28,812 nt of DNA, from IMG/VR virus record IMGVR_UViG_2693429623_000012; one strand, given 5' to 3'. The stretch comes from a virus (taxonomy: Duplodnaviria; Heunggongvirae; Uroviricota; Caudoviricetes). The notes beneath the pieces were generated by a model. The model had not been told where the DNA came from, searched no databases, and saw only the letters and a program-made list of their open reading frames with translations. Numbering within the stretch: position 1 is the stretch's first letter; each line of letters starts with the position of its first letter. Made by a program: the position numbers and the translations under genes. Below are positions 2,970-25,852 of this stretch, piece after piece.

Positions 2970-2997
2970 TGAAAAGAAAAAAGGCCGCAGAGCGGCC
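2970..2997 (-). terminator. Intrinsic terminator for a minus-strand transcript: hairpin GGCCGCTCTGCGGCC followed by TTTTTTCTTTTC
   Basis: Plus strand reads gaaaagaaaaaa-ggccgcagagcggcc (2970-2997); on the minus strand this is a 6-bp GC stem with 3-nt loop followed by a T-run. Lies about 110 bp downstream of the cargo ORF stop and about 60 bp upstream of the btuC start. Confidence 0.6.
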
Positions 2998-3106
2998 ATA
3001 AACACAAACAAAAATCAATAAGTTAGGTAATTATCAAAGACTTACAGACACACAAAAACACAGCCAACCACAACAAATAACAGAGATGTGGTCAATTTGT
3101 GGATCA

Positions 3107-3544
3107 TCAGCCAACAAATTTAGCAACAAATACAGCAACCGCCGCTGTGAAAATGGTTGTGCACACTGGCACAATAATGCCACTCCAACGCCACTTCGTA
3201 TTATCATCAACCTTGTCAAACCGCCGATTCATCTCATCCATAATCTTGTCAAAGCGTTTATCCATCGCTTCGGTAAGCTCACCCTTCAGGCTGTTAATGT
3301 CTGATTTGAGCTGCTCTTTCAGGTTAGCTGTATCAGATTTAAGCTCACCTTTCAGATTCGCAATATCGCATTCAAGATCACCTTTCAGATGTGCTATGTC
3401 TGCTTTGAGTTCACCTTTCACCTCACCAACATCGGCTTTAGTTGAGAGGTTTGTAGTGCGTTCAGCAAGCGTCGCAAGGTCGTTTCTTGTTAGCGATAAA
3501 TCACCTTCGAGCCGCTCAATTCGCCTTTCAAGTTTATCTGACAT
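3107..3544 (-). CDS. Membrane-anchored coiled-coil protein with five 11-residue (hendecad) repeats and one C-terminal TM helix; unknown function (alternative upstream start at 3661 gives 184 aa)
   Basis: ORF track 3107..3661. An internal ATG at 3544 is preceded by GGAGG (4-nt spacer) and gives MSDKLERRIERLEG... Repeats like ADIAHLKGDLE / CDIANLKGELK / SDTANLKEQLK; C-terminal hydrophobic segment IIVPVCTTIFTAAVAVFVAKFV. Lower GC than the flanking host genes. Confidence 0.6.
   Translation of the reverse strand: MSDKLERRIERLEGDLSLTRNDLATLAERTTNLSTKADVGEVKGELKADIAHLKGDLECDIANLKGELKSDTANLKEQLKSDINSLKGELTEAMDKRFDKIMDEMNRRFDKVDDNTKWRWSGIIVPVCTTIFTAAVAVFVAKFVG
3277..3441. repeat. Five imperfect tandem 33-bp repeats inside the coiled-coil cargo gene
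   Basis: Units start at 3277, 3310, 3343, 3376, 3409, for example gctcacctttcagattcgcaatatcgcattcaa and gatcacctttcagatgtgctatgtctgctttga; in frame, each encodes one 11-aa repeat. Confidence 0.85.
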
Positions 3545-3644
3545 TCCGCCTCCACTACTGCCGCCATCGCCACCATGATAAAGCACATCACGCTCAGAAT
3601 GCGACACACTACCTGCTGAATTACCGAAAAGATTTCTTGCTACA

Positions 3645-4178
3645 TTACCCATTATCACCATCCTGCGCTTTGTCTTTCTCCAACCACTTCAGCACCGCAG
3701 ACGTACGATAAAGGCTCAGGTAACCACAATTCAGGCAATGCAGCGTGTAATAAGTTTTGCGCATATCAGGTATGCTCTTAACATCACCCAAAAAAGCATA
3801 AGATACATAATGCTTTATGTTCTCTTTAATTAACTCACTCTGTTCCTCCAGGGGTAGATTGTTAAAATTTTCTGGTTTCTTATTTTTATCCCAGCAAAGA
3901 TCCATACTTTCTGGAACAGATAATCGCGACGATCCACATGAAGGGCAGACACTGGAGACCCCCTTCTCAGACAAGAAACGGAAGAAGATTTCTGGCGTAA
4001 TCTCCATCAGCCGCTCTTTATGTTTTNNNNNNNNNNNNNNNNNNNNNNNNNNNNNNNNNNNNNNNNNNNNNNNCGACTTCTTATTGATTTCATCAGCTTC
4101 TTCTTTGCATTTATCTTCTATATATTTCGATAGTAAATAGTCATATAACTCTTTTTTTGTAGGTTTTTTTATTTCCAT
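3645..4178 (-). CDS. Lys-rich protein with two CxxC pairs (CPSCG ... CLNCG), a putative zinc ribbon; unknown function; interrupted by an assembly gap so true length is uncertain
   Basis: ORF track 3645..4178 (16 X residues from the N run). Start ATG at 4178 lies 2 nt after the int stop (TAA at 4183-4181, minus strand) and is preceded by GGGAGGA inside the int 3' end. AT-rich (roughly 40% GC by eye). Confidence 0.55.
   Translation of the reverse strand: MEIKKPTKKELYDYLLSKYIEDKCKEEADEINKKSXXXXXXXXXXXXXXXXKHKERLMEITPEIFFRFLSEKGVSSVCPSCGSSRLSVPESMDLCWDKNKKPENFNNLPLEEQSELIKENIKHYVSYAFLGDVKSIPDMRKTYYTLHCLNCGYLSLYRTSAVLKWLEKDKAQDGDNG
4027..4073. other. Assembly gap (47 N)
   Basis: Run of n characters; not biological sequence. 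Confidence 0.99.
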
Positions 4179-4180
4179 AG

Positions 4181-5158
4181 TTACATTCCTCCCAAGGGAT
4201 TAAACCTCACCGCATCCTGCAAGTAATCCGGCGCAAGATGGGCATAAATCATCGTTGTCTGAATCTTTGCGTGCCCCAGAATTTTCTGGAGCGTCAGAAT
4301 ATTGCCGCCGTTCATCATGAAATGACTGGCGAAGGTGTGGCGCAGCGCATGAACAGCCTGGCCGTCAGGAACATCAGGTGCGACCGTTTTGATGACATCG
4401 CGAACCAATGAATAATCCAGCGTCGGAAACACCAGTTTCCCGCCCCGTTTTTTGATCTTTTCAAACAGGCTTTCAGAAATAGGAACGGTACGGTTTTTGC
4501 TGTTCTTCGTTTTTGAAAAAGTGATTCGACAATGAAGAACACGGCGCTGCTCCAGTGCCGCTACCTCGCCCCATCGCGCCCCGGTCGACAGAAGGATTTC
4601 GACGGCCAGCCGTTCATCGGGATTTTCAGCCAGTGCATCCAGCAACTGAACACATTCAGACTTACTCAGATATCCCATTTCACGCTCGTTAACCTTCATT
4701 CCTTTAAGGCCTTGAACGGGGTTATCGTTAAGAAAATGGCCGGATGAGATGAGTGCGGTAAACATCGCGCTTAACGCCCCAATCTCTCGATTTATGGTGC
4801 TGGGCTGTATCCCCTGCTCTATCCTGGACACACGTAGCTCGGTGAGCATCGTTGTATTAAGTTTATGCACGCACGGGTCATCCATTGCCTCACTCAAGCG
4901 CAGCAATTTAAGGCGCGTGTTATGCCCTGACTTCATTAGCTGGCCGTGGTATTTCCACCACAAGTCAATAAGCACTGACAGCGGACGGCGATCAATGGAG
5001 TTTCCTTTCCACTCATTGTTATGCTGTTGCGCCAGCACCCACCGCTCATATAAAACTGCATCCGATTTCGTTTTAAATTTTTTGCGAATGCGTTTGCCTT
5101 TACGCCCCTCAGGACGCATGTCAAGAAGATACCCTCCCGGAATTGATTTTATGCTCAT
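4181..5158 (-). CDS. int: Tyrosine site-specific integrase, P2 Int-like (about 325 aa)
   Basis: ORF track 4181..5308. Start moved to the ATG at 5158 (MSIKSIPGGYLLDMRPEGRKGKRIRKKF...), which aligns with the P2 Int N-terminus (MAIKKLDDGRYEVDIRPTGRNGKRIRRKF, recalled). C-terminal catalytic region HALRHTFASHFMMNGGNILTLQKILGHAKIQTTMIYAHLAPDYL carries the conserved R..H-x-x-R..Y motifs. Confidence 0.9.
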   Translation of the reverse strand: MSIKSIPGGYLLDMRPEGRKGKRIRKKFKTKSDAVLYERWVLAQQHNNEWKGNSIDRRPLSVLIDLWWKYHGQLMKSGHNTRLKLLRLSEAMDDPCVHKLNTTMLTELRVSRIEQGIQPSTINREIGALSAMFTALISSGHFLNDNPVQGLKGMKVNEREMGYLSKSECVQLLDALAENPDERLAVEILLSTGARWGEVAALEQRRVLHCRITFSKTKNSKNRTVPISESLFEKIKKRGGKLVFPTLDYSLVRDVIKTVAPDVPDGQAVHALRHTFASHFMMNGGNILTLQKILGHAKIQTTMIYAHLAPDYLQDAVRFNPLGGM

Positions 5159-5207: not shown

Positions 5208-5519
5208 TTAGCCGGGCTGTGTGCCAGTCTTGCGGGATTTTTGAGAAGACGATGTGTTTTCTGGCCCATCAGGGGAGAGAGAAGGACTGATCTGCCCAGC
5301 AGCCTCATTTGTTTCGTTACTCATCAACCACGTAGTGTATTTTTTAAATTCCGGGTGCATTGTGATTTTCAGTAAAACCTCCGTTCCCACACCTCGAATA
5401 CCAGTCTCGTATTGCTTAACCGTACCAACCGCAATACCTATTGAATCCGCGAACTTTGCCTGACTAAGCCCCTCAGATTCTCGAATTGCTTTTAGCTTCT
5501 TTGATATCTCTATTGACAT
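5208..5519 (-). CDS. Immunity repressor, P2 C-like (about 104 aa)
   Basis: ORF track 5208..5621; start moved to the ATG at 5519 (MSIEISKKLKAIRESEGLSQAKFADSIGIAVGTVKQYETG..., HTH). C-terminal part ...EFKKYTTWLMSNETNEAAGQISPSL... resembles P2 C (...QFTKYTLWFMTNQIAPESGQIAPAL..., recalled). Divergent from the cox-like gene, upstream of int. Confidence 0.8.
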   Translation of the reverse strand: MSIEISKKLKAIRESEGLSQAKFADSIGIAVGTVKQYETGIRGVGTEVLLKITMHPEFKKYTTWLMSNETNEAAGQISPSLSPDGPENTSSSQKSRKTGTQPG

Positions 5520-5614
5520 GGTGTGCACCTGAATACTATATTGGTTATCAGTTGAGTACCACTTGACGCTACAAAGAGCCACAAATAGCACCAGATTGAA
5601 TAGGTTATCACACC
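5520..5614. promoter_or_regulatory. Divergent lysogenic/early promoter-operator region between C and the cox-like gene
   Basis: 95-bp gap between divergently transcribed C (minus) and cox-like (plus) genes. Contains a direct repeat of GGTTATCA (5543-5550 and 5603-5610) with similar flanks (tattGGTTATCAg / aataGGTTATCAc) and a TTGACG hexamer at 5563-5568. Confidence 0.5.
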
Positions 5615-5893
5615 ATGGCAAAAGTCCTTAACACATACGAACAAGCGGATTTTGAGCGTTTGGCGGCGTTCTACCCATACCGTAATGAACATGGGCTACC
5701 GGTACTTGAAGAAAGCCTAGAGGATTATGCGAAACGCACAAATCAAAGCATTCTCGCTGTAAGAAGGCAGGCTGATAGATCGGTAATTCCCGTTACTCAA
5801 GAAGGAAGAAACACAAAACGCAAAGTAAATCTCTTCGCAATTTTCCTGAAAACCATCAGAAACGCAGAGAAATACGTGCAGATGACAAAATAA
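5615..5893 (+). CDS. Cox-like small early-operon protein (92 aa); assignment is positional
   Basis: First gene of the rightward early operon, divergent from C, about P2 Cox size (91 aa). I could not confirm sequence similarity to P2 Cox by eye. Confidence 0.5.
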   Translation: MAKVLNTYEQADFERLAAFYPYRNEHGLPVLEESLEDYAKRTNQSILAVRRQADRSVIPVTQEGRNTKRKVNLFAIFLKTIRNAEKYVQMTK

Positions 5894-10852: not shown

Positions 10853-11812
10853 ATGAAAATTTGTATCGACGACGGCTCCACCAACATCAAGCTGGCATGG
10901 ACTGAGAACGGCGAACGCCGCAACGCCATCAGCCCGAACAGCTTCAAGTCGGAATGGTCTGCGCCGTTCGGTGGCATGCAGCCCGCGAACTACATGCTTG
11001 ATGGCGTGCGCTATGGTTTTGATCCGGTCAGCGATCGCTTTGTCCAGACAACCGACACGCAATACCAGTACAGCGATGTAAATGTCATTGCCATTCATCA
11101 CGCGCTGGTCAAATCAGGCATCACGCCACAGGAGGTGGATGTGGTTGTCACCCTGCCACTGAGCGAGTATTTCGACACAAACGCACAGCCGGACATGGCC
11201 AACATCAACCGCAAAAAAGCGAACGTTATGCGCCCGGTGGAGTACCAGAACGGCGAAGCATTCACTATCCGTAACGTGCGGGTTATGCCTGAATCCATTC
11301 CGGCTGGCTTTAAGGCACTGGCTGACATGAGTCCGTTTGAATCCCTGCTGATTGTGGATTTGGGCGGAACCACGCTGGATGTGGCAAAGGTTCAGGGGCA
11401 ACTGGCAGGTATCAGCCAGGTGTTTTGCGATCCACACGTAGGCGTTTCTCTGATGGCCGATGCCGTACTGTCGGTGATGGCCACTAACGGTATGCGCACC
11501 AGTCACCACATCGCCAATACCATTATCGAACATCGCCATGATGAAGCCTGGCTGCGCCAGCACATCCACAATGACGCGCATTACGCCAGCCTGATGGCGG
11601 TTATTCGTGAAAAGGAAGAAACACTGAAACAACGCGTGATCCGCGCGCTGGCGGGTTTTTCGGGTTACGGGCGGGTGATGGTTGTCGGTGGAGGGGCGGA
11701 GATTGTGGCACCCGCTATCCGCGAAGCCTGCGGAGTTAATGCGACTTTCATCGCGGACGGGGTGCCACAGTTTGCTCTGGTTAATGGGCTGTACGCAATG
11801 GACAAGGAGTAA
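10853..11812 (+). CDS. Actin-like segregation ATPase, ParM/StbA family (319 aa)
   Basis: N-terminus MKICIDDGSTNIKLAW...ISPNSFKSEW...YSDVNVIAIHHAL closely parallels plasmid R1 ParM (MLVFIDDGSTNIKLQW...ISPNSFKREW...YSDVNVVAVHHAL, recalled); AAGGAAAAG upstream. Confidence 0.85.
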   Translation: MKICIDDGSTNIKLAWTENGERRNAISPNSFKSEWSAPFGGMQPANYMLDGVRYGFDPVSDRFVQTTDTQYQYSDVNVIAIHHALVKSGITPQEVDVVVTLPLSEYFDTNAQPDMANINRKKANVMRPVEYQNGEAFTIRNVRVMPESIPAGFKALADMSPFESLLIVDLGGTTLDVAKVQGQLAGISQVFCDPHVGVSLMADAVLSVMATNGMRTSHHIANTIIEHRHDEAWLRQHIHNDAHYASLMAVIREKEETLKQRVIRALAGFSGYGRVMVVGGGAEIVAPAIREACGVNATFIADGVPQFALVNGLYAMDKE

Positions 11813-11816
11813 ACCA

Positions 11817-12128
11817 ATGACGACACCAACCAGACGGATAAGTTTCTATCTGAAGCCTGCGGCCGTCAAGAACGAAAGCGAAGCATGCGCCTGGCTGGGC
11901 AGCCTTACACCAGAAGCCCGCAAAAGCGGCCAACGCGTGGCTTTTCTGGCCGGGCTGGCACTTCTGAAAATGAATCCAGCAGAGGCTTACCGACTGGCTG
12001 CATGGGCTGACGATGAGGCGTTATCGGTGACACAAACCAGGACAGAACGCCCCGTGCCACAGCCAGTACCAACCGCACAGATAACCAGTCAGATAGCAGG
12101 GAATATCCGGGCATTATTTCCTGAATGA
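11817..12128 (+). CDS. Putative ParR-like partition adaptor (103 aa)
   Basis: In-frame ATG 5 nt after the parM-like stop. Weak but collinear resemblance to R1 ParR: RRISFYLKP vs RRTIAFKLNP, AGLAL core, C-terminal IRALFPE vs ILRSLFPKE (recalled). Confidence 0.55.
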   Translation: MTTPTRRISFYLKPAAVKNESEACAWLGSLTPEARKSGQRVAFLAGLALLKMNPAEAYRLAAWADDEALSVTQTRTERPVPQPVPTAQITSQIAGNIRALFPE

Positions 12129-12188
12129 CGAATTTGACGGCTTTTAATTTTATCGGGGTGCACTGTCGCCCCGCACGAGGAAAACACG

Positions 12189-12713
12189 ATGAAAAAATAC
12201 GAATACATGCTAATGAAAGAAGCACTGCGGGCTGGTCTGGCTCCCTGTCCTGTATCCGTAGAAGCTGTTGTTGGGAACACGATTTTCCGAACGCTGCGAA
12301 ATCGCGTATCCGTGAAGATGGTTCACCAACCACCCAAATCTACCAGCATGATCTATCTGCCGCTGCCCGAGGCTATCAAACTTATGCGTTCGCTGAAATT
12401 TGCGATTTGGATGCAGACACAAATCAACAAAGCGGTGCAAAACACCTTCGTTAAGAGACTAATACCGGAGCTTGCTGCCAGATGTGCAAAATGTACCAGA
12501 CCCGCACTTCAATTTGATCTGTCATTGATTCAACAAGCTACGGAGGCAGAACTGTACCGCCTGTCACCTATCCGTGATGCTCACACGGAAGCATCAGAAA
12601 TGTTCCGGCTCATGTTTCAATTTAATTTTGCCGTTCGACGCACACGCGTTCAGGTCAATCGCATGATGCAGGAGCAGGAAGAGTTAACACAGTACAAAGG
12701 GGGCAGCCAGTGA
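12189..12713 (+). CDS. Hypothetical protein (174 aa), accessory-locus cargo
   Basis: ORF track 12189..12713; GAGGA upstream; no recognisable motif. Confidence 0.5.
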   Translation: MKKYEYMLMKEALRAGLAPCPVSVEAVVGNTIFRTLRNRVSVKMVHQPPKSTSMIYLPLPEAIKLMRSLKFAIWMQTQINKAVQNTFVKRLIPELAARCAKCTRPALQFDLSLIQQATEAELYRLSPIRDAHTEASEMFRLMFQFNFAVRRTRVQVNRMMQEQEELTQYKGGSQ

Positions 12714-25825: not shown

Positions 25826-25852
25826 NNNNNNNNNNNNNNNNNNNNNNNNNNN
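25826..25852. other. Assembly gap (27 N) joining P2-like and lambdoid material
   Basis: Run of n characters placed at the end of the shared repeat; sequence on the two sides belongs to different phage modules. Confidence 0.99.

What the first reader, a model, noticed from the sequence alone, without database searches (positions are those of the whole stretch)
2970..4180. Two-gene AT-rich cargo module coupled to int at the end of the prophage lysogeny operon
Downstream of the P2-like int, on the same strand, are two genes absent from the canonical P2 layout. The first encodes a Lys-rich protein with two CxxC pairs (3645-4178); its ATG sits 2 nt after the int stop, with GGGAGGA inside the int 3' end. 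The second encodes a coiled-coil protein with hendecad repeats and a C-terminal TM anchor (3107-3544). An intrinsic terminator (2970-2997) follows. In P2 the C-int transcript is the lysogenic one, so the geometry predicts these genes are expressed in the lysogen. That is the expression pattern of superinfection-exclusion, abortive-infection or lysogenic-conversion cargo. Neither protein resembles anything I can name. Composition is clearly more AT-rich than the flanking btu genes and prophage core.
Basis: partly seen in the sequence, partly recalled or inferred. Interest (0 to 1): 0.8.

Follow-up and report, generated by a model that had tools for sequence, protein, structure and literature searches.

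The report
Prophage zinc-ribbon plus membrane-anchor gene pair
Two uncharacterised genes sit between the integrase and the attachment site of a P2-like E. coli prophage: a zinc-binding cytoplasmic protein and a membrane-anchored coiled-coil protein that always travel together in phage lysogeny operons, which makes them a good untested candidate for a system that protects the lysogen from other phages.

Summary
Window 2998-28812 is a P2-like prophage inserted between ihfA and btuC.

**What lies between int and attL**
- A 4-Cys zinc-ribbon gene (3645-4178). It is 166 aa in gap-free relatives, not 177.
- A DUF1640/CCDC90-like gene (3107-3544). It more likely starts at 3652/3661, overlapping the zinc-ribbon stop codon.
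- The "terminator" (2970-2997), which is the att core, a copy of the host ihfA terminator.

**Evidence that this is phage cargo**
- Prophage-free E. coli lack the pair.
- Canonical P2 has no gene in this interval.
- In about 300 E. coli prophages at this site, the slot holds one of four divergent alleles of the pair (140 genomes) or an unrelated gene (158 genomes).

**Evidence that the two genes are one unit**
- In 18 loci examined (17 with a zinc-ribbon gene), the zinc-ribbon gene is followed by a coiled-coil, single-TM partner in all but one.
- The pair usually lies just downstream of int or of a cI-like repressor. It occurs once alone in a chromosome.

**Function**
No homology to any characterised protein, fold or defence model was found. 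My best reading is a lysogen-expressed, Rex-like exclusion or abortive-infection cassette. That is inferred, not shown. I class it as a new member of a known kind, of moderate interest.

The parts
2970..2997 (-). attL core, which is also a copy of the host ihfA intrinsic terminator (GGCCGCTCTGCGGCC + T6CT4)
   Evidence: Homology to prophage-free genomes ends at 2997. The same ~27 nt is present at attB in E. coli C and at attR next to ihfA in RM8426. The hairpin has dG -11.6 kcal/mol and matches the terminator scan.
2998..3106 (.). AT-rich P' arm of the attachment site (GC 0.32), with a possible Int arm repeat TGTGGTCA/TGTGGATCA at 3087-3107
   Evidence: These 108 nt are conserved at 94-98% in 306 E. 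coli genomes whatever gene follows. In P2 the Int P' arm and Cox sites occupy the same position relative to the core. The function of the repeat is inferred.
3107..3661 (-). DUF1640/CCDC90-like tail-anchored coiled-coil protein. Short form 3107-3544 (145 aa, the RefSeq call). Probable true start is the ATG at 3652 (181 aa) or 3661 (184 aa), overlapping the zinc-ribbon stop.
   Evidence: ORF. Beta-layer motif LSTKAD and C-terminal TM. The frame is open up to the upstream gene's stop, with a conserved GG.GG.GM tract, in the divergent homologues examined. The AF2 monomer shows residues 1-33 disordered, helices 37-67, 72-146 and 150-180, with a break at the beta-layer motif.
3316..3420 (-). 33-nt tandem repeats encoding the hendecad (11-aa) units of the stalk
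   Evidence: TRF: period 33, 3.2 copies. Alleles differ by exact multiples of 11 aa.
3645..4178 (-). 4-Cys zinc-ribbon protein (phrog_4293 family). 166 aa in gap-free relatives.
   Evidence: ORF. Full sequence from RM8426. phrog_4293 E = 1.5e-22. 90 representative clusters among 1.84e9 proteins. Four invariant Cys. AF2 pLDDT 83.9.
4027..4073 (.). Run of 47 N inside the zinc-ribbon gene
   Evidence: The corresponding stretch is 14 nt in NZ_CP028116.1.
4187..4193 (-). Shine-Dalgarno GGGAGGA for the zinc-ribbon gene, inside the last codons of int
   Evidence: Sequence read on the minus strand.
4181..5158 (-). P2-type tyrosine integrase
   Evidence: Pfam Int_N 2.1e-28 and Phage_integrase 5.7e-20. 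The RefSeq gene is 978 nt.
5208..5519 (-). P2 C-type immunity repressor, first gene of the lysogenic operon
   Evidence: HTH_3 1.1e-09. RefSeq annotation. It lies divergent from a cox-like gene at 5615-5893, with a strong early promoter match at 5513-5542(+).

Best explanation
The two genes form a self-contained accessory cassette in the int-att cargo slot of a P2-like prophage. They are transcribed as the tail of the C-int lysogenic operon, and transcription stops at the att-core/ihfA terminator.

Gene 1 encodes a cytoplasmic protein built around a 4-Cys zinc ribbon. Gene 2 is translationally coupled to it. It encodes an inner-membrane protein with a disordered Gly-rich N-terminal tail, an alpha/beta coiled-coil stalk of variable hendecad number, and a C-terminal anchor, so its bulk faces the cytoplasm.

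I infer that the zinc-ribbon protein binds the partner's N-terminal tail. I also infer that the pair acts at the cytoplasmic face of the membrane as a Rex-like exclusion or abortive-infection device: the soluble protein senses an incoming phage and releases or activates the membrane protein, which compromises the membrane.

**Shown:** anatomy, cargo status, obligate pairing, lysogeny-operon synteny, independent mobility.
**Inferred:** expression in the lysogen, physical interaction, anti-phage function.
For: **Cargo and slot**
- Absent from prophage-free E. coli and from P2.
- Present in an episomal P2-like genome.
- The slot holds four divergent alleles of the pair (23 + 14 + 17 + 86 genomes) or an unrelated gene (158 genomes) behind the same P' arm.
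- The int-att interval of P2-like phages is a recognised minor defence hotspot (PMC13586616).

**Obligate pair**
- 18 loci were examined: the window/L001 plus 17 others. One of them (L021, O104:H4) holds an unrelated gene instead of the pair.
- Of the 17 with a zinc-ribbon gene, 16 have it followed by a coiled-coil + TM partner. The genes mostly overlap by 4-17 nt or abut.
- The exception is L042.

**Lysogeny-operon position**
- After int: window, L002, L003, L004, L014, L022, L038.
- Directly after an S24 cI-like repressor: L010, L017/L018, L041.
- Two genes downstream of an S24 repressor: L040.
- Between repressor genes and int: L006.

**Self-sufficiency**
- A stand-alone copy lies between cdaR and dapD (L015).

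**Interaction hint**
- Between two otherwise 98%-identical prophage ends, the swapped block is the zinc-ribbon gene plus the partner's N-terminal extension.
- Extension types track zinc-ribbon clades.

**Other**
- AT-rich composition typical of morons.
- The closest analogue in geometry is lambda cI-rexA-rexB (PMC11077077).
Against: - No experimental or transcript data exist for this pair.
- No hit to any PADLOC defence model in seven family members. The only matches are coiled-coil noise.
- No structural or sequence similarity to RexA/RexB or any characterised exclusion protein.
- The two proteins diverge at similar rates overall (median 31% vs 32% identity), so there is no general signature of a faster-evolving sensor.
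- A cytoplasm-facing coiled coil is not what classical DNA-injection blockers look like.
- A three-helix TM bundle is not an obvious pore.
Confidence: 0.45

Rival explanations
1. A toxin-antitoxin-like addiction module. The tail-anchored membrane protein is a growth-arresting toxin and the zinc-ribbon protein its antidote. Together they stabilise the prophage rather than (or as well as) excluding phages.
For: - Upstream-soluble, downstream-effector gene order with overlapping or abutting genes.
- Small proteins.
- Stand-alone two-gene insertions in core chromosomal intergenic regions (L015; L036).
- The same prophage carries a Hok/Gef toxin at its other end.
Against: - No similarity to any TA family in Pfam or NCBIfam.
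- No similarity to the MqsA zinc-ribbon antitoxin in a profile comparison.
- A 100-150-residue coiled-coil stalk of variable length is unusual for membrane toxins.
- In L036 the zinc-ribbon gene is disrupted by an IS while the partner ORF stays intact, which argues against a strongly toxic partner.
Confidence: 0.2
2. A lysogenic-conversion module that changes host envelope or stress physiology, for example by scaffolding or tethering a host factor at the inner membrane. It has no role against phages.
For: - Lysogen-expression geometry.
- The DUF1640/CCDC90 architecture is that of a membrane-anchored scaffold (PMC4786415).
- The carriers listed among the best matches are mostly STEC serotypes: O26, O103, O145, O157.
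Against: - The module occurs in prophages of very different hosts, including Methylorubrum (CP001510.1).
- It is swapped among alleles, or for an unrelated gene, within one prophage lineage. That pattern fits conflict systems better than a host-specific adaptation.
Confidence: 0.15
3. An accessory regulator of integration, excision or prophage maintenance that works with Int or the repressor.
For: Constant linkage to int or to the immunity repressor across phage types. A zinc ribbon could bind nucleic acid.
Against: - About half of the prophages with the same P' arm and att site carry an unrelated 131-aa gene instead, so the pair is dispensable for this Int system.
- It accompanies unrelated repressor types (P2 C-type and S24).
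- It occurs with no phage genes at all (L015).
Confidence: 0.08

Closest known systems
Lambda RexA/RexB exclusion system (cI-rexA-rexB operon)
   Same: Two genes ride on the repressor (lysogenic) transcript and end at a terminator: one soluble cytoplasmic protein plus one inner-membrane protein. In several relatives the pair sits exactly where rexAB sits, directly after a cI-like S24 repressor (PMC11077077; 10.1101/2021.04.19.439022).
   Different: No sequence or fold similarity. There are no Pfam RexA/RexB hits. RexB is a polytopic membrane protein (from my own knowledge), whereas the partner here is a single-pass tail-anchored coiled coil. RexA has no zinc ribbon.
DUF1640 / CCDC90-like family (PF07798; MCUR1, CCDC90B and prokaryotic homologues)
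   Same: Coiled-coil stalk beginning with the [aliphatic]-A/S-T-K-x-[D/E] beta-layer motif (LSTKAD here) and a C-terminal membrane anchor. RefSeq names the protein DUF1640/CCDC90 family.
   Different: The window protein scores 24.1 bits against a gathering threshold of 33.5. It has a hendecad array of variable copy number and a Gly-rich N-terminal tail. It is always paired with a zinc-ribbon gene. No function is known for any prokaryotic member.
P2-like phage cargo hotspots (old/tin between gpA and gpQ, Z/fun, and the minor int-att hotspot)
   Same: A variable, AT-rich accessory slot in a P2-like genome. The int-att interval was reported to hold 3% of recognisable P2 defence systems (PMC13586616; PMC9122126).
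   Different: This cassette is not recognised by PADLOC and I found no description of it in the papers searched.
Ltp-type superinfection-exclusion genes of Gram-positive temperate phages (TP-J34 Ltp prototype)
   Same: Membrane-associated proteins encoded in the lysogeny module of temperate phages and expressed by the lysogen (PMC3952083, abstract seen; the paper was not opened).
   Different: Those proteins are surface-exposed lipoproteins (PMC3952083, abstract seen). Here both products are predicted to face the cytoplasm. No homology.

Membership tests
DUF1640 / CCDC90-like (PF07798) | Pfam HMM score at or above the gathering threshold | tested here: not met
   24.1 bits against a cutoff of 33.5. 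Several close homologues do carry a precomputed PF07798 hit.
DUF1640 / CCDC90-like (PF07798) | Beta-layer motif [aliphatic]-A/S-T-K-polar-[D/E] at the start of the stalk | tested here: met
   LSTKAD at residues 33-38 of the short form. T, K and D are invariant in alignments A4 and A6. The motif definition comes from PMC4786415.
DUF1640 / CCDC90-like (PF07798) | Single membrane anchor at the C-terminal end | tested here: met
   The best 19-aa hydropathy window is at residues 162-180 of 184 (mean KD 2.43). The same holds in the other loci scored, except that in L017 the TM is followed by a Pro/Ala-rich tail.
DUF1640 / CCDC90-like (PF07798) | Trimeric alpha/beta coiled coil | not testable with these tools
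   Only a monomer AF2 model was possible (pLDDT 58.6). It shows a helix break at the motif.
P2-like (Peduoviridae) prophage | P2-type integrase, C/cox switch, gpA, portal Q, terminase P and tail fibre genes in P2 order | tested here: met
   Int_N + Phage_integrase. Phage_GPA 6.6e-131, Phage_portal, Terminase_6N/6C/5 and Phage_tail_fib. RefSeq annotation of the identical prophage.
Lambda Rex system | Homology to RexA and RexB | tested here: not met
   No RexA/RexB family among Pfam hits at E <= 1. No PADLOC hit. No PDB fold match.
Lambda Rex system | Soluble + membrane gene pair on the immunity-repressor transcript | tested here: met
   Position after C-int here (2-nt gap, no promoter match) and after S24 repressors elsewhere. 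Transcription itself was not tested.
Known anti-phage defence systems (PADLOC-DB v2.0.0) | Significant match of either protein to a defence-system model | tested here: not met
   The zinc-ribbon proteins give no hits. The partners match only the coiled-coil regions of LmuB, ZorA, LeoBC and PbeC, at 11-21 bits.
Type II toxin-antitoxin with a zinc-ribbon antitoxin (MqsRA type) | Homology of the zinc-ribbon protein to the MqsA N-domain | tested here: not met
   hhalign probability 5%, with 12 aligned columns.

The most novel reading that the evidence does not exclude
The pair is a previously unrecognised two-component anti-phage system. It consists of a 4-Cys zinc-ribbon sensor docked on the N-terminal tail of a tail-anchored trimeric coiled-coil effector, whose stalk length is tuned by gain and loss of hendecads. 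It is carried in the lysogenic operons of P2-like and lambdoid prophages across Proteobacteria and works in a Rex-like, membrane-directed way.
Probability: 0.35. Interest if true: 0.7.

Novelty: new member of a known kind. Interest (0 to 1): 0.5.

Why it matters
Prophage cargo slots are the richest current source of new anti-phage systems. The int-att interval of P2-like phages has only recently been recognised as one.

This cassette is compact (about 1.1 kb) and is present in roughly 140 of 5426 complete E. coli genomes at this one site. It recurs in unrelated temperate phages and is invisible to current defence annotation. If it proves defensive, it would add a new effector architecture, a tail-anchored alpha/beta coiled coil, and would give the first function to prokaryotic DUF1640 proteins.

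The natural cassette swap and the 11-residue length polymorphisms provide ready-made specificity and stalk-length variants for experiments. If it is not defensive, it is still a clean example of an obligate protein pair tied to lysogeny.

Tried and rejected
- **Host genes rather than cargo.** Rejected: prophage-free genomes join ihfA to btuC at the hairpin.
- **Cargo-specific terminator.** Rejected: it is the att core.
- **Sequence searches.** The profile against PDB, Pfam, NCBIfam and PADLOC gave nothing significant.
- **MqsA-like antitoxin idea.** No support.
- **tblastn of the zinc-ribbon protein against 50,697 phage records.** No match, although a 32%-identical family member (local alignment) is present in CP052639.1, so BLAST is too insensitive for this family.
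- **The search for related loci with broad alignments.** Failed for lack of a conserved stretch. The narrow alignment found only 2 species-representative genomes and 14 viral contigs, mostly the same prophage.
- **Faster evolution of the zinc-ribbon protein than its partner.** Not supported overall.
- **Rfam scan of the whole window.** No RNA family.
- **Literature.** Searches for DUF1640 or CCDC90 in phage defence, and for the RefSeq accessions, found nothing relevant.
Full report
**Setting.**
The window begins with E. coli nlpC, btuD, btuE and btuC, all on the minus strand (29-2914). From 2998 onward it is a P2-like prophage. In order it contains two small genes, a P2-type integrase (Int_N 2.1e-28, Phage_integrase 5.7e-20) and a C-type HTH repressor. 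These are followed by a divergent cox-like gene, gpA (Phage_GPA 6.6e-131), portal, terminase and tail fibre genes.

The closest complete genome is E. coli O26 RM8426, at 99.9% identity over the region. There the prophage ends about 35 kb further on, at ogr, a Hok/Gef gene and then ihfA.

**Checking the observation.**
- The zinc-ribbon ORF 3645-4178(-) starts 2 nt after the int stop, with GGGAGGA inside the last int codons.
- It is 13.9% lysine.
- It has two CxxC pairs.
- The second ORF has a 33-nt tandem repeat (period 33, 3.2 copies, 3316-3420). This encodes 11-residue units such as HLKGDLECDIA and NLKGELKSDTA, with hydrophobic residues spaced 4-4-3.
- It has a C-terminal hydrophobic segment at residues 162-180 of the 184-aa reading frame.
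- The hairpin plus U-tract at 2970-2997 scores as a terminator, with dG -11.6 kcal/mol and z = -2.55.
- GC content is 0.384 and 0.443 for the two genes, against 0.49-0.55 for the flanks.

**Corrections.**
First, the 47-N run corresponds to only 14 nt in RM8426. The protein is therefore 166 aa, and the hidden residues read MSRVK.

Second, the terminator is not a cargo feature. Homology to prophage-free genomes runs up to 2997, the end of the stem. In E. coli C the same hairpin sits 18 nt downstream of the ihfA stop codon. A near-identical copy, TTGAAAGAAAAAAGGCCGCAGAGCGGCC, lies at the other prophage end beside ihfA. The roughly 27-nt att core therefore is the ihfA terminator, and attP must carry it too. 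As a result the int operon ends at the same terminator in both the phage and the prophage state. The next 108 nt (2998-3106, GC 0.32) are the P' arm. They are conserved in 306 E. coli genomes whatever gene follows.

Its frame is open back to 3661, overlapping the zinc-ribbon stop at 3645. The ATG at 3652 has AGGA 8 nt upstream. In every divergent relative examined, the partner frame likewise stays open until it abuts or overlaps the upstream stop codon. The extension always ends in a Gly-rich tract (GGDGGSSGGGM, GGDDGGDDM, GGGGGSGM, GNDGGDGM and so on) just before the coiled coil. An open frame of about 35-45 codons in this many independent lineages is not chance. An internal start with its own GGAGG remains possible as a second isoform.

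**Is it cargo?**
Yes.
- Only 23 of 5426 complete E. coli genomes carry this allele.
- Canonical P2 has int overlapping the P' arm, with no gene before attP.
- An episomal 32-kb Klebsiella P2-like genome has C, int, a zinc-ribbon homologue, a DUF1640-like gene, then the tail/D genes, so the pair travels with the phage.

A census of the slot behind the same P' arm gives four divergent zinc-ribbon alleles:

| Slot content | Genomes |
|---|---|
| Window-type zinc-ribbon allele | 23 |
| STEC388-type allele | 14 |
| K_EC180-type allele | 17 |
| MS6193-type allele | 86 |
| Unrelated 131-aa gene (O104:H4 type, no Pfam or PADLOC hit) | 158 |

Each of the four alleles examined is followed by a coiled-coil/TM partner. 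I did not verify that every counted genome carries its allele at this particular locus. A 2026 survey of P2-like phages lists the int-att interval as a minor defence hotspot holding 3% of recognisable systems (PMC13586616).

**What the proteins are.**
The zinc-ribbon protein belongs to phrog_4293 (E = 1.5e-22, function unknown). The family is small:
- 18 clusters found by word search among 5.8 billion proteins.
- 90 representative clusters at E <= 1e-3 among 1.84 billion.

Members are 100-180 aa long. Across 44 diverse members, the only invariant residues besides the start Met are the four cysteines, with G141 and W154 nearly invariant. The conserved core is a helix (ITPExFxxFL) followed by CxxCG, a variable insert, and then Y-x-x-x-C-x-N-C-G with a C-terminal helix. 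The N-terminal Lys/Glu-rich helix of the window protein is absent from the short members.

AF2 gives a confident model (pLDDT 83.9), but it matches nothing beyond generic zinc ribbons:
- Foldseek against PDB, best E 0.44.
- BFVD, best E 0.012.

Pfam, NCBIfam, PADLOC and a profile search of PDB sequences give nothing significant. A comparison with the MqsA zinc-ribbon antitoxin is negative.

The partner is named DUF1640 or CCDC90 family by RefSeq. Its own Pfam score is sub-threshold (24.1 against 33.5 bits). It does carry the beta-layer motif that Hartmann et al. described for DUF1640 membrane proteins, [aliphatic]-A-T-K-polar-[D/E] (PMC4786415). Here the motif is LSTKAD, and T, K and D are invariant in homologues. 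The AF2 monomer model breaks its helix exactly there.

Homologues come in lengths of 112, 123, 134, 145 and 156 aa. Alleles that are 99% identical elsewhere lack exactly one or two hendecads, so the stalk length changes by slippage of the repeat.

With no signal peptide and only four residues after the TM, the protein is most likely tail-anchored, with its bulk in the cytoplasm. That is also where a zinc-thiolate protein is expected. This topology is inferred, not shown.

**The two genes are one unit.**
I examined 18 loci: the window/L001, L002, L003, L004, L006, L010, L013, L014, L015, L017, L019, L021, L022, L036, L038, L040, L041 and L042. One of them (L021) holds the unrelated gene. Of the 17 with a zinc-ribbon gene, 16 have it followed by a coiled-coil protein with a TM. 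The genes usually overlap by 4-17 nt or abut. The exception is L042, next to Csy genes, which has a 55-aa hydrophobic ORF instead.

The contexts are telling:
- Directly after int in P2-like prophages at three or more different att sites.
- Directly after an S24 cI-like repressor, or two genes further down such an operon.
- Between repressor genes and int in a 186-like prophage.
- Beside ogr in Providencia.
- Beside an S24 repressor in Methylorubrum extorquens (CP001510.1).
- Once as a bare two-gene insertion between cdaR and DUF3461/dapD/glnD, with no phage genes.
- In L036 the zinc-ribbon gene is cut by an IS while the partner is intact.

This is the behaviour of an independently mobile cassette that prefers lysogenic operons.

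**A hint of interaction.**
RM8426 and STEC388 share about 98% identity from att through the partner's coiled coil, and again from the int 3' end onwards. Between those points lies a replaced block. It comprises the zinc-ribbon gene (35% protein identity over the local alignment; 30% by BLASTP) together with the partner's N-terminal extension, up to the Gly tract.

Extension types follow zinc-ribbon clades. The MGNxAxNLFG type goes with the 165-aa clade, and the xKRxxGxTPIR type with the 130-aa clade. I infer that the zinc-ribbon protein recognises the partner's N-terminal tail. Overall the two proteins diverge at similar rates (median 31% and 32% identity over 105 locus pairs). That fits co-evolving partners rather than a fast sensor paired with a slow effector.

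**Mechanism.**
- **Shown:** anatomy, cargo status, obligate pairing, operon position, independent mobility.
- **Inferred:**
  - Transcription from Pc. No sigma-70-like match lies on the minus strand within int, the gap to int is 2 nt, and in P2 the only annotated promoter for C-int is Pc.
  - A complex at the cytoplasmic face of the inner membrane.
  - An anti-phage role.

The closest analogue is lambda cI-rexA-rexB: a soluble protein and a membrane protein on the repressor transcript (PMC11077077; 10.1101/2021.04.19.439022). There is no homology to either Rex protein. I put about 0.45 on a defence function, whether exclusion or abortive infection.

The rivals are:
- A TA-like addiction module (0.2). 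This is not mutually exclusive with abortive infection. The IS-disrupted copy with an intact partner argues against strong toxicity.
- Non-defensive lysogenic conversion (0.15).
- An Int or repressor accessory (0.08). This is weakened because half of the prophages with the same P' arm and att site lack the pair, and because of the stand-alone copy.

**Novelty.**
The genes are annotated only as hypothetical or DUF1640. I found no paper describing the pair, and PADLOC v2 does not model it. The kind of thing is well known: a lysogeny-operon cargo cassette in a recognised P2 hotspot. The specific protein pair is not. I therefore file it as a new member of a known kind, of moderate interest, with a real chance of being a new defence-system family.

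Noticed in passing
window 10853-11812 (+), with ORFs 12125-12713: A ParM/StbA actin-like segregation protein (StbA_N 2.7e-82, ParM_N 1.3e-68) sits in the gpA-gpQ cargo hotspot of this prophage. It is followed by ORFs with no Pfam or PADLOC hit.
   Followed up: partly
window 25826-25852: A second run of 27 N lies inside the tail-fibre region.
   Followed up: no
L011 (NZ_CP028116.1 2405000-2420000): The far end of the same prophage in RM8426 carries three further cargo genes: a Hok/Gef toxin gene between ogr and attR, a 500-aa PIN-domain protein between D and ogr, and a serine O-acetyltransferase near the tail genes.
   Followed up: no
window 3087-3107: A direct repeat, TGTGGTCA and TGTGGATCA 12 nt apart, lies at the inner edge of the conserved P' arm and overlaps the partner's stop codon. 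These are possible Int arm-type sites.
   Followed up: no
L021 2705-3100 (NC_018650.1, E. coli O104:H4 2009EL-2050): In 158 complete E. coli genomes the same int-att slot holds a single unrelated 131-aa gene with no Pfam or PADLOC match. It is the alternative occupant of the hotspot.
   Followed up: partly
L015 4001-4658: A stand-alone copy of the pair lies between cdaR and DUF3461/dapD/glnD in an enterobacterial chromosome, with no phage genes nearby.
   Followed up: partly
L042 2537-3333: A zinc-ribbon family member (P0113, 147 aa) lies upstream of Csy1-4 genes without the usual partner. A 55-aa, very hydrophobic ORF follows instead.
   Followed up: no
L036 5112-5782: A zinc-ribbon gene truncated by IS insertion, with an intact partner gene, lies next to hinT, ycfL and lpoB.
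   Followed up: no
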